A stretch of 64,000 nt of DNA from Balanoglossus misakiensis (GCA_040954595.2 CM082588.2:6088202-6152201), one strand, 5' to 3'; shown: positions 26,445-49,569, numbered from the stretch's first letter. The notes: generated from the letters alone by a model not told the origin. Made by a program: numbers and translations.

Positions 26445-29400
26445 TTATAGACATGACTCGGTGTGAACCACGACTTGCAATTTCTCACCAGAAGGCCACA
26501 TCTCTTTTGATATATTTACATACAGATGATCCTCGAAATCTTTCATCGCCATGTATTCCTGTAGAAATATTGCAATGAAGATTGTGCATGAAGACCACCT
26601 CTTTATGATACTGACTACTTAAAATTCTAACTTAGTTATAAATGTTCTACAAATTGAAGTGTGTCCTGTCCTACATTGCAAATTTCTTACTTAATTGATC
26701 GCATGAAAAAGTGGCAATAACTGAAAATTGGAATGAAATAATAAGTACATTGTAGTTGGTTTTCGTGAACAAGGGTTTGGTCTTTCAATCATAAACTTTC
26801 GTAATTACCACTATGACACGAGAAACATCAAAATATATGTCTTTAAGAACACACCTTCGTGACGTCATTAGCCATCTCGCCCACCACCAAACATATGTCA
26901 GAAAAGGATGGTCTACTTCCAGCGCGTTGCAGCCAACATTTCAGCATAACTTCATAGCTGAAAAAGTAACATTGCACACAAAATCTGTTACCGTATTTTT
27001 CAAGGGGAAATAAACATTTTAGATATTATACTGCTATACTATTACATACACGGGAATTAATCGCGAACGTGCACACATAAACGATGTTTTCATCTTAATT
27101 TGAAAAAGTTGACTCATGCTTACATCTCTTTACTACAGTGACGTGGCTTTTGCAGCCTGTCCCCTGCACGTAATTTCTTTATAACCTGTGATGCTGTCAA
27201 ATGCGCATATGGCGAAGAACCTATAAAAACGTAAGAAAGTAAGCTAATGAATGAATGAATGATCTAATGAATGAATGATCTAATGAATGAATCAATCAAT
27301 CAATCAATCAATCAATCAGTGAGTGAGTGAGTGTGTGAGTGAGTGAGTGAGTGAGTGAGTCAATGAGTCAGTCAGTCAGTCAGTGAGTCAGTCAGTCAGT
27401 GAGTGAGTGAGTCAGTCAGTCAGTCAGTCAGTGGGTGGGTGGTTGTTTAGGTGTGCTGACTGATTGATTGACTGGTTTATTTATTTATTTCCTGCCTTCA
27501 TTTACATGTCTTCCTGACGTTTGCGGAACACACAAAGAATGTATGAATCTCACTGTCATGTAAATTACTGACTGACTCAGATATTAAGCTGAATGTCCTA
27601 TGGAAAGCAAACTTAGTCTACGCCAAAATTAGCAGAATAATAATCGTTCAGTCTACATCTAGTATTTTCAAATTGGGCCACTGATTGTCTTACCAAGTGT
27701 TGCTATTTCCCACAGTAGAACTCCGTATGACCAGACATCACTTTTAATCGTGTACTTGTAGTGCATCAATGATTCTATGGCCATCCACCTAATTGGCAAA
27801 CGACCCTGAAAACAGAGGAACGCATACCATTTCACTCCCTATGGACAGATACCTTTCGCTGGTTTTATGATTTTCACAACATTTAATGTATCGGTACCCT
27901 CAAAGTAATAGATAAAACGAGAGACCAACATAACAATGCGCGTTTACTTGCCTTGGGTTTACAGAAGTAAACAGGGTTTTCACTGACATTTCTAGCAAAG
28001 CCGAAGTCTGAAATCTTGCAGCACATATTTTCACCCAATAAAACATTCCTTGTCGCTAGATCCCGATGAATGCACTGAAATTTATACAATTAAAATGACC
28101 ACCATACTCGTAGTAGTCGCCGTCATCATTATCATCACCACCACCACCACCACCACCACCATCATCATCATCATCATCATCATCATCATCATCATCATCA
28201 TCATCATCATCATCATCATCATCATCATCATCATCATCATTTCAGAATGTTGTTAAATACTAGTAGTAAACTGTTAATAGATTATGACTCATGATTACAT
28301 TACATTTTATACATCCAAAACGATTACCAAACTACCATCATTTAATCAACTTGTTCAGATTTTCTTGTTCGTTACATGTTACCTCTTTCGACGCAATGAA
28401 AGACATGCCCTTGGCAATCTGCCAAGCGAACTGCAGCAGGTCATATGCGGTGAGGTCTCGACAGTTCGGGTAGACATTCTGATAGCTTTGGTTTGATCTG
28501 TTCTTAACCAAGTAGTCTTGTAAGTTGCCATTAGGTGCTAGTTCGAGGATTATACACGGGGGACCTGTGTGCATCATTAACAGTATTATTGCACTAGGAA
28601 CCTCCATTACAAACAATTTAGTTCAATCATGATATAAAGTGAAGTGAAGTGATGTCTCAACATTTGCGAGTTGGAGAATGTAACTGTTATAAAGTATTTT
28701 TTCTTTATTCAGAGGCTTCACCTAAGCTTGTGCCTATATATAGCCGTATTGCAGGCGTCTTATCAGCACCGGATTACGTCAGCTACACACAGCTCTACAC
28801 AGTCTTAGGCTGCATTCACAAACACCTCTGGAGGGGGGGGGGCGGGAGAATTCAATTTTTTTTACCGTTAATTTTCACATGCCCCCCTCAACAACCCGAA
28901 ATATTTTCAAATCCCCCCCTTCCGAACTGCTAAAATTTTCAAATCCCCCCCCCCCCATTTTCTTTCACACAGCAAAACACATAACCTATCTATCTTGTAA
29001 AAAAGAAAAACAGCGCTCTCATGAAAAGAATTTGAAACTGATGTTTCCCCTTATCAGTGGGTATTAAAACTGAACATTGTTTCTATTTTTTAAGTATTTT
29101 GTATTCTGTGTTGGGAGACATTGTAAACTGAGAAGTGAAGGGGGTGGGTTTGGGAGGGGGTGTCCCCCTCCCATGTAAGAAAATTTTACAAAATACAGAG
29201 TTCAAAACTGCATATTAATGAACCCAAAAGCAAATTAACTCAACTACCGGTATGTTGGGGAGGACAAATTTAACCTTCGGGTCTCAAAGTTAGCATTGGG
29301 GGGGGGGGGGGGGCAAGTCCCCTGACCTGGGACACTAGATAAACCAGTCAATGATTTAAAGGTGATGATGAATGACGGGGGTGGGGGTGGGAGGGGGTGT

Positions 29401-49200: not shown

Positions 49201-49569
49201 CCTTTGAAAAAAATTTTATCTAACCATTTTACTTGCATGACTACTGCTTTACTCAAATGTCCACAATAATAAAAGGATGTCTAGGGAAAATGTGTCACGG
49301 GTTTAATACATAAAGACGTTTTCCTGCCATGTTATGTTTTTGAAGAACGAACTCGAGATGACCTGGAACAAAATATGTTGTTGTTATTACTACGTGGTTT
49401 CAGGTCTTCTAACTGGCGGCGTGAGTAACATGTAACTGGCCTGTGTTCTTTTTCATGACAGAAGGAATCCAATAACATGAAAAACTGTAGCAATTCCCAA
49501 CTGGAAGAGACCGACTCGGACACTGATGACGAATCCAATAACCCGGAGACATGTGAAACGTTTTTGTAA
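40211..49569 (+). CDS. Type I membrane protein with 4 Ig-like domains, repeat stalk and short acidic tail, no kinase (about 610 aa)
   Basis: Exons 40211-40292 (signal MNVLAVLLGNCIVSLFMCLSILG), 40483-40626 + 41929-42135 (D1), 42498-42866 (D2), 43072-43196 + 45605-45758 (D3: ADLSCSV..PQW..LTISNFSSRNAGQYSC), 45888-46015 + 46463-46625 (D4: VTMHC..IQW..LTISNITEHDTGEYFC), four 51-nt exons, 48399-48547 (TM), 49462-49569 (ends CETFL*). Phases are compatible and the total is 1833 nt. Additional small cytoplasmic exons are possible. Confidence 0.78.
41151..41750 (-). mobile_element. Decayed LINE 3' remnant with (TAAA)n tail
   Basis: Minus-strand peptide remnants AVLGDSGWIDI...DRLRKMDVDRWTRVVF resemble the post-RT region of non-LTR elements, followed by a long (TAAA)n at 41151-41243. 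Confidence 0.55.
43256..43396. repeat. Long imperfect palindrome centred on gaggcgaagccgag
   Basis: Arms gagaataatgaacgccccaaagaccc... / ...gggtctttggggcgttcattattctc of about 65 bp. Confidence 0.85.
45150..45508. repeat. (GAT)n microsatellite in three blocks separated by gtaggataatgctgatggt
   Basis: Direct reading; intronic. Confidence 0.95.
46790..48345 (+). repeat. About 333-bp tandem repeat, 4.7 units, each full unit carrying a 51-nt coding exon
   Basis: Exons at 47068-47118, 47403-47453, 47736-47786 and 48066-48116, each tatttag|...|gtaacg. Confidence 0.9.
48790..48920 (-). mobile_element. Penelope-like GIY-YIG endonuclease remnant
   Basis: RIYCLKCQRWNMVYFGETKRRLGNRF resembles the PLE motif xIYxIxCxxCxxxYIGETxRxLxxRF. 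Confidence 0.65.

What the first reader, a model, noticed from the sequence alone, without database searches (positions are those of the whole stretch)
26445..49569. Head-to-head pair: Ig receptor tyrosine kinase plus kinase-less Ig receptor
Seen: two divergent signal-peptide exons 452 bp apart. One gene is Ig2-stalk-TM-kinase with intact VAVK, HRD and DFG. The other is Ig4-stalk-TM-short acidic tail. Both end in class I PDZ-binding-type motifs (ESCL, ETFL), and both have a phase 1-1 S/T stalk exon ending in a similar gtcgac...aag|gtaacg. Known: kinase-less Ig receptors such as FGFRL1/nou-darake act as decoys or co-receptors, and divergently paired sensor/signalling genes occur in immune systems. 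Inference: this is a co-regulated sensor (or decoy) plus signal-transducer module, possibly immune or allorecognition related. Neither ectodomain resembles canonical FGFR or FGFRL1 to my eye.
Basis: partly seen in the sequence, partly recalled or inferred. Interest (0 to 1): 0.75.

Follow-up and report, generated by a model that had tools for sequence, protein, structure and literature searches.

The report
Acorn-worm receptor kinase facing kinase-less cousin
Two intact back-to-back genes, likely from an acorn worm, encode a receptor tyrosine kinase and a kinase-less membrane protein whose outer part matches a kinase receptor of the same family in another acorn worm, so the second likely serves as a non-signalling decoy or partner that is likely switched on together with the first.

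Summary
The anatomy holds: two open 14-exon genes, start codons 452 bp apart, head to head. Gene A is an Ig2 receptor tyrosine kinase with intact catalytic motifs, of an expanded acorn-worm family whose kinase is nearest RET. New here: gene B is no unrelated Ig receptor. Its first three domains match (29% over 305 residues) a Ptychodera flava receptor kinase of gene A's family, and no kinase exon lies near it. So B is a kinase-less member of that family, with a different ectodomain from A's. Remnants of a third such gene lie nearby, inside a dioxygenase array. Co-expression, binding and conservation of the pairing are untested (no genome held, no RNA run listed). Best reading: co-transcribed kinase plus decoy-type relative, like insect DR2 (about 0.45). 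Unchecked notes of this scan report other head-to-head Ig pairs in this genome.

The parts
39716..39758 (-). Gene A exon 1, start codon and signal-peptide core
39145..39468 (-). Gene A exon 2, V-type Ig domain; Phe where the Saccoglossus relative P0008 has the B-strand Cys
   Evidence: Pfam V-set E 1.1e-5; alignment; 0 of 200 shuffles reach the score against P0008
38547..38882 (-). Gene A exon 3, second Ig domain
   Evidence: Pfam ig E 3.3e-5; matches P0005 and P0008
33714..33779 (-). Gene A Ser/Thr stalk exon, phase 1-1
32362..32941 (-). Gene A TM exon (32941-32760, phase 1-0) and first juxtamembrane exon (32442-32362)
26445..31704 (-). Gene A exons 7-14: tyrosine kinase with Gly loop, VAVK, HRD, DFG, one activation-loop Tyr (Y552); YxN sites at 483, 487 and 674, YxxM at 663; tail with 10-residue extension ending ESCL. 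Exons 31704-31485, 31283-31170, 28564-28383, 28074-27952, 27805-27694, 27220-27124, 26957-26855, 26558-26445
39759..40210 (.). 452-bp divergent intergenic region, candidate shared promoter; two-way TATA-like element at 39983-39992 near the middle, one CCAAT at 39951
   Evidence: 51 of 5000 shuffles, but 9 of 141 real tiles, have such a central element
40211..40292 (+). Gene B exon 1, start codon and signal peptide
40483..42135 (+). Gene B domain 1 (exons 40483-40626 and 41929-42135), predicted non-canonical V-type Ig fold with Trp at the usual F-strand Cys position
   Evidence: homologous to P0004 (0 of 200 shuffles); fold from the P0004 model
42540..42866 (+). Gene B domain 2, no Pfam family; likely Ig-like
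   Evidence: own model unusable, pLDDT 38
43072..46625 (+). Gene B domains 3 and 4, canonical Ig, each in two exons (43072-43196, 45605-45758; 45888-46015, 46463-46625); extra Cys333 aligned with P0004 Cys323
46790..48344 (+). 335-bp tandem repeat carrying four open 51-nt phase 1-1 stalk exons (47068, 47403, 47736, 48066)
48399..49569 (+). Gene B TM exon (48399-48547, phase 1-0) and terminal acidic exon (49462-49569) ending ETFL; no ITIM, ITAM, YxN or YxxM match in the tail
19639..23890 (+). Four degenerate copies of the 3' half of the B-type domain-1 exon (19639, 21048, 22344, 23807): remnants of a third B-type gene
   Evidence: 50-53% identity to P0004 residues 107-141, best E 0.001; the first copy has an in-frame stop and all four match only part of the exon

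Best explanation
Gene A is an intact receptor tyrosine kinase of an expanded acorn-worm family, and gene B, 452 bp away head to head, is an intact kinase-less relative of that family that likely works as a membrane-bound, non-signalling decoy or partner, likely transcribed with A from a shared promoter. Shown: both frames are open; B's domains 1-3 are homologous to a Ptychodera flava receptor kinase (P0004) whose kinase is 59% identical to A's; B stops one exon after its TM and no kinase exon lies near it. Inferred: A would dimerise on ligand binding, autophosphorylate and recruit Grb2- and PI3K-type adaptors through its YxN and YxxM sites (consensus motifs recalled). B would bind the ligand of B-type receptors, or pair with them, without passing a signal, and so damp them. 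Because A and B have different ectodomains, B is more likely a decoy for B-type paralogues elsewhere in the genome than for A's own ligand. The arrangement likely arose by local duplication and exon shuffling in an unstable receptor cluster. Whether B lost a kinase (about 60%) or P0004 gained one (about 40%) is not resolved.
For: B vs P0004: 28.9% identity over 305 residues, E 1.8e-32 in an 8-protein set; each of four B domains beats 200 of 200 shuffles, while A's two domains do not match P0004 (164 and 133 of 200 shuffles as high) and do match P0008/P0005. B TM plus tail aligns end to end with P0004's TM plus juxtamembrane part (3 of 1000 shuffles), and B's TM exon has the same phases (1-0) as A's. 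A family kinase HMM over 3,330 six-frame segments scored E<0.001 only in 5 segments, all in gene A. All 14 B exons are open with GT-AG sites despite the distance from P0004. Cys pairs in domains 1 and 3 are kept in both. A two-way TATA-like element sits near the middle of the 452 bp. Precedent: insect DR2 is a TM-bearing kinase-less insulin-receptor paralogue (PMC7253209, passages).
Against: No RNA data, so neither expression nor the exon models are confirmed. P0004 is a single predicted RefSeq model and could be a mis-joined gene. B's last exon alone does not align significantly to any of four juxtamembrane regions tried (215 to 808 of 1000 shuffles). The central TATA is weak against real sequence (9 of 141 tiles), and would put 4 and 5 upstream ATGs in the two leaders. 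In medaka only about 37-52% of divergent pairs were co-expressed (PMC11676430, passages). Head-to-head is 10-21% of linked duplications in six animals (PMC3194840), so orientation alone is ordinary. No kinase-bearing B-type paralogue is shown in this genome.
Confidence: 0.45

Rival explanations
1. A and B form an obligate two-chain receptor: their N-terminal V-type domains would build one binding site and A would supply the kinase, as proposed for Botryllus FF/FcoR pairs.
For: Head-to-head at 452 bp; both start with a non-canonical V-type domain; the B-type ectodomain is wired to this kinase family in P0004; FF/FcoR are head-to-head, co-expressed Ig pairs (PMC12582321, passages); unchecked scan notes report other head-to-head Ig pairs in this genome; an exact 15-bp repeat lies in both first introns (2 of 300 shuffles).
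Against: A has its own complete ectodomain and needs no partner to sense. The PDZ-type ends that suggested a common scaffold are not conserved. The 15-bp repeat is matched by 5 of 32 real 2-kb tiles, mostly repeat-bearing. The pairing could not be shown in any second place.
Confidence: 0.2
2. B is a recent casualty: a receptor kinase gene cut off from its kinase exons by rearrangement in a birth-and-death cluster, still open but without a selected function; its position next to A is accidental.
For: The locus is unstable: degenerate B-type exons at 19.6-23.9 kb, a LINE fragment in A intron 3, and the pair interrupts an array of at least 7 TauD genes. B's stop codon lies in a donor-like GTAACA hexamer, as if an old splice donor were read through.
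Against: 1,791 coding bases and 13 introns without a lesion; no kinase remnant in 14.4 kb downstream; ATTAAA 19 nt after the stop.
Confidence: 0.25
3. B is an independent adhesion-type Ig protein with a variable-length stalk and PDZ anchor, and P0004 is a later chimera; B and A merely share a neighbourhood.
For: The A-type ectodomain occurs in the most distant relative (Saccoglossus P0008), and P0004's kinase groups with A's (support 93/92, midpoint root only), so the B-type ectodomain may have been swapped in. The Atlas model of P0004 residues 131-340 aligns with CEACAM/CADM-type proteins at TM 0.42-0.48.
Against: B's TM and tail still resemble P0004's TM and juxtamembrane part; TM scores under 0.5 show only a general Ig chain.
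Confidence: 0.1

Closest known systems
Ptychodera flava XP_070557265.1 (P0004, NCBI label 'FGFR4-like') and the hemichordate 'Cad96Ca-like' gene models P0001-P0003, P0005-P0008
   Same: Same kinase family as gene A (49-64% identity); P0004 carries the B-type ectodomain, P0005 and P0008 the A-type.
   Different: P0004 has three outer domains and a kinase (no activation-loop Tyr); B has four and no kinase. These are automatic labels, not studied proteins.
Insect decoy of insulin receptor DR2 (and secreted SDR), PMC7253209 (passages)
   Same: Paralogue of a receptor kinase that lost the kinase and kept ectodomain and TM; SDR is reported as an antagonist.
   Different: Other receptor family; DR2 is reported conserved for about 300 My, whereas B is known from one genome; B's neighbour has another ectodomain.
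FGFRL1 / nou-darake, PMC2754479 (passages, section 7)
   Same: Kinase-less Ig receptor linked in the genome to its kinase-bearing relatives.
   Different: Three Ig domains with a box between I and II, linkage under 10 Mb; B has four domains, matches a non-FGFR kinase gene and lies 452 bp from A.
Botryllus FF/FcoR allorecognition pairs, PMC12582321 and PMC12065747 (passages)
   Same: Head-to-head pairs of dissimilar Ig receptors with N-terminal V-like domains, one with a short tail, one carrying the signal; the two first domains differ in exon number (here 1 and 2).
   Different: Sushi domains, three TM helices in FF, ITIM/hemITAM tails instead of a kinase; co-expression and copy-number variation are shown there, not here.
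Geodia cydonium RTK and SAML/SAMS, PMC11926128 (passages)
   Same: Two-Ig receptor kinase beside kinase-less Ig relatives, tied to self/non-self recognition.
   Different: RTK and SAML share one two-domain design with the canonical Cys-Cys-Trp triad; no head-to-head linkage in the passages seen.

Membership tests
Catalytically competent receptor tyrosine kinase (gene A) | Signal peptide, single TM, Gly loop, VAVK Lys, HRD, DFG | tested here: met
   activity itself not assayed
Tie/Fgfr/Ret/Vegfr/Pdgfr kinase group | Kinase domain closest to these subfamilies | tested here: met
   Family members P0005, P0004 (profile A3) and P0008 score best on RET single domains (263, 263, 242 bits), then FGFR1 (229, 243, 235); tested on relatives, not on gene A's joined kinase; no tree with vertebrate kinases was built
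RET / Cad96Ca (Stitcher) | Cadherin ectodomain | tested here: not met
   A's two outer exons are Ig domains; cadherin as RET's mark from PMC8662651
FGFR | Three Ig domains and FGFR-type kinase | tested here: not met
   Two Ig exons; no further phase 1-1 exon candidate in intron 3 by a simple scan; RET scores higher. Three-Ig design recalled
FGFRL1 / nou-darake (gene B) | Three Ig domains with a box between I and II | tested here: not met
   Four domains, no such box exon, homology to P0004 against PMC2754479 section 7
DR2-type kinase-less receptor paralogue (gene B) | Ectodomain and TM of a receptor kinase family, kinase absent | tested here: met
DR2-type kinase-less receptor paralogue (gene B) | Kept across species and expressed | not testable with these tools
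   No genome held, no RNA run listed
DR2-type kinase-less receptor paralogue (gene B) | Binds the ligand and antagonises signalling | not testable with these tools
   Ligand unknown
Ig V-set fold (B domain 1) | V-type beta-sandwich | tested here: met
   On the homologue P0004: pLDDT about 60-77 over residues 41-140; VIA Z 10.4, rmsd 2.3, 99 aligned to antibody V domains; Atlas TM 0.64-0.72
Ig fold (B domain 2) | Ig-like beta-sandwich | tested here: inconclusive
   No Pfam hit, model pLDDT 38, Atlas TM 0.42-0.48 over domains 2-3
FF/FcoR-type paired allorecognition receptors | Head-to-head pair of Ig receptors | tested here: met
FF/FcoR-type paired allorecognition receptors | Sushi domain; ITIM or hemITAM tail | tested here: not met
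   No Sushi hit in the nine outer-domain exons scanned; no ITIM/ITAM match in B's tail
FF/FcoR-type paired allorecognition receptors | Co-expression, polymorphism, copy-number variation of pairs | not testable with these tools
Siglec-11/16-type paired receptors | Near-identical ectodomains with opposite tails | tested here: not met
   A vs B best BLAST E 0.046; definition from PMC5701461 abstract
Class I PDZ ligand | Terminal S/T-x-hydrophobic, conserved | tested here: inconclusive
   Both match; chance 130 of 3,766 segments (3.5%) each, about 0.13% for both but picked after the fact; absent from 3 of 3 full-length relatives of A

The most novel reading that the evidence does not exclude
Acorn worms have a family of head-to-head, co-transcribed receptor pairs in which a kinase-less V-type sensor chain and a RET-like receptor kinase form a two-chain recognition receptor, with ectodomains shuffled between chains (fused in Ptychodera P0004, split here): a kinase-based counterpart of the Botryllus FF/FcoR allorecognition pairs.
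Probability: 0.15. Interest if true: 0.8.

Novelty: new variant of a known kind. Interest (0 to 1): 0.47.

Why it matters
Hemichordate recognition receptors are barely described; none of my ten literature searches listed a paper on this kinase family. The locus shows one RET-like kinase family carrying two unrelated Ig ectodomains, one of which also exists without a kinase, next to its relative on a 452-bp divergent spacer. That is a compact, testable case of how decoy or co-receptors arise from receptor kinases. If the pairing recurs and the chains bind, it would be a kinase-based paired receptor system in a deuterostome with no known one.

Tried and rejected
No whole genome is held, so a genome-wide search for other pairs was impossible. 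No RNA holder was listed for 38500-43250; no evidence either way, and read laying was therefore not used. Word-index searches with single ectodomain exons found nothing (0 of 76 and 0 of 57 candidates), nor did the representative search with B domain 2 (0 hits), although P0004 is a homologue: these searches are too weak here. Metagenome scan with a B exon gave one 16-residue match (L001), judged chance. AlphaFold of B domain 2 failed (pLDDT 38) and was not searched; the P0004 model is usable only for domain 1, so its Foldseek hits reflect sequence only. Complex prediction of A domain 1 with P0004 domain 1 as a cross-species stand-in gave no answer (0.27, mark 0.34, alignments unused). Alignment A1 mis-placed the fragments and was dropped. 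DNA traces of an inverted duplication between A and B: none for signal, TM, post-TM or last exons (390 to 999 of 1000 shuffles). The 8-row kinase tree is mostly unresolved (1 of 5 inner branches starred). The sea-urchin RTK survey was not held; amphioxus kinase expansions are recalled only. Scan look-ups by relatives, sequence, near place and one word set were empty. Supplements were not opened.

Full report
Observation. I read the region, fixed splice sites and built both models by coordinates. Gene A: minus strand, 14 exons, 698 aa, one GC donor. Gene B: plus strand, 14 exons, 596 aa, all GT-AG. The ATGs are 452 bp apart. Pfam on 16 stretches gives Ig hits for both outer exons of A and for the four exons of B domains 3-4, kinase hits for the four A kinase exons scanned, and nothing for B exons 2-4. 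A keeps the Gly loop, VAVK, HRD, DFG and one activation-loop tyrosine. No RNA run was listed, so the models rest on DNA alone.

Origin and family. A kinase exon of A found 7 proteins among 12 candidates, all hemichordate gene models: five of Ptychodera flava, one of Saccoglossus, one of Glandiceps, at 53-73% identity, with P0008 added as a cluster member. The window is thus likely an acorn worm other than the P. flava reference (inference). Against solved structures, P0005, P0004 and P0008 score best on RET single kinase domains, then FGFR1; the nominal top hit is a two-domain EGFR construct. A's last kinase introns have phases 0, 0, 1, 2, like the end of the Vegfr string in PMC4898815 (passages); positions were not compared. 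A has no cadherin domain, so 'Cad96Ca-like' is only a label.

Main result. B's residues 30-333 match P0004 residues 33-323 (28.9% over 305, E 1.8e-32 among 8 proteins); all four B domains beat 200 of 200 shuffles against P0004, and domains 1-2 do not match P0005 or P0008. A's domains do the reverse. P0004 is an 870-aa model with one TM and a kinase 59% identical to A's. B's TM plus tail aligns end to end with P0004's TM plus juxtamembrane part (3 of 1000 shuffles), the TM alone at 12 of 500, the last exon alone not at all. A kinase HMM over 3,330 six-frame segments found E<0.001 only in 5 segments of gene A, nothing after B, and TauD genes begin 6 kb downstream. So one kinase family carries two ectodomain types, and B is the second type without a kinase. 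The 8-row tree groups A with P0001-P0005 (93/92, midpoint root, mostly unresolved) and cannot say whether B lost the kinase or P0004 gained it. P0004 is one predicted model and was not verified.

Fold of B's outer domains. On the homologue P0004, domain 1 is predicted as a V-type sandwich (pLDDT about 60-77; Z 10.4, rmsd 2.3 over 99 residues; Atlas TM 0.64-0.72) without the usual Cys pair: P0004 has only Cys71 and Cys86 there, kept in B as Cys68 and Cys83. Domain 2 is unresolved. A's domain 1 has Phe at the B-strand Cys of P0008. An extra Cys in domain 3 is kept in B and P0004 and could link chains (inference).

PDZ ends: 130 of 3,766 random stop-ended segments match class I, so both matching has about 0.13% chance, but the pattern was chosen afterwards, and P0004, P0005 and P0008 all end at the Leu ten residues before A's end; A's next codon is CAA, one base from a stop. 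Stalk motif: top 3 of 169 junction pairs, 7 of 1000 shuffles with flanks, 587 of 1000 for the exon alone: weak. Promoter: the only TATA-like element in the 452 bp reads both ways and sits near the middle (51 of 5000 shuffles; 9 of 141 real tiles), with one CCAAT; a simple pattern found no acceptor upstream of either ATG. Against: 4 and 5 upstream ATGs under that start; divergent pairs are co-expressed only about 37-52% of the time in medaka (PMC11676430, passages); head-to-head is 10-21% of linked duplications (PMC3194840, passages).

Surroundings. Four degenerate copies of part of the B-type domain-1 exon lie at 19.6-23.9 kb, closer to P0004 (50-53%) than B's own exon is (35%). The cluster interrupts at least seven same-strand TauD genes, four left and three right. 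The locus is therefore unstable, which supports both a birth-and-death receptor cluster and the casualty rival.

Mechanism. Shown: intact kinase gene, intact kinase-less relative, divergent spacing. Inferred: shared promoter; A signals by dimerisation and YxN/YxxM docking (consensus recalled; a kinase-insert YxN is present in 8 of 8 relatives); B binds ligand or B-type partners without signalling. I put this at 0.45, an obligate A-B receptor at 0.2, a functionless casualty at 0.25, an independent adhesion protein at 0.1.

Comparison. B works like insect DR2 (PMC7253209, passages) and FGFRL1 (PMC2754479, passages and section 7) but belongs to neither. The layout resembles Botryllus FF/FcoR (PMC12582321 and PMC12065747, passages), without Sushi or ITIM. 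Geodia RTK/SAM is a further analogue (PMC11926128, passages). It is no Siglec-11/16-type pair (PMC5701461, abstract), as the ectodomains differ. Ectodomain shuffling on receptor kinases is known (PMC8662651, passages). Ten searches of the open library listed no paper on this family; most subscription journals are not covered. Two unchecked scan notes report other head-to-head Ig pairs in this genome; I could not test them and count them as leads only.

Verdict. Real and intact; a new variant of a known kind; the pairing's function is open. Interest 0.47.

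Noticed in passing
window 613-14474 and 55636-62778, minus strand: Tandem array of at least seven TauD/TfdA dioxygenase genes (four left, three right), interrupted by the receptor cluster.
   Followed up: partly
window 19639-23890, plus strand: Four degenerate copies of part of a B-type domain-1 exon inside 1.3-1.45 kb segmental repeats; remnants of a third gene closer to P0004.
   Followed up: partly
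window 46790-48344: Exon-bearing tandem repeat: each 335-bp unit holds one open 17-codon stalk exon, so stalk length could vary by copy number or skipping.
   Followed up: partly
window 34179-35075, minus strand: LINE-type reverse transcriptase fragment in gene A intron 3 (Pfam RVT_1 E 7.5e-15).
   Followed up: no
window 17867-18685, plus strand: 272-aa frame that looks like a retrotransposon gag fragment (by eye; not searched).
   Followed up: no
window 39532-39546 and 40321-40335: Exact 15-bp direct repeat, one copy in each gene's first intron, nowhere else in the window; possible shared cis-element.
   Followed up: partly
window 14845-16170: Minisatellite of about 40-bp units, some 30 copies (by eye).
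   Followed up: no
P0003, P0004, P0002 (P. flava): P0003 and P0004 lack an activation-loop tyrosine; P0002 has HGD in place of HRD: the family may include non-standard kinases.
   Followed up: no
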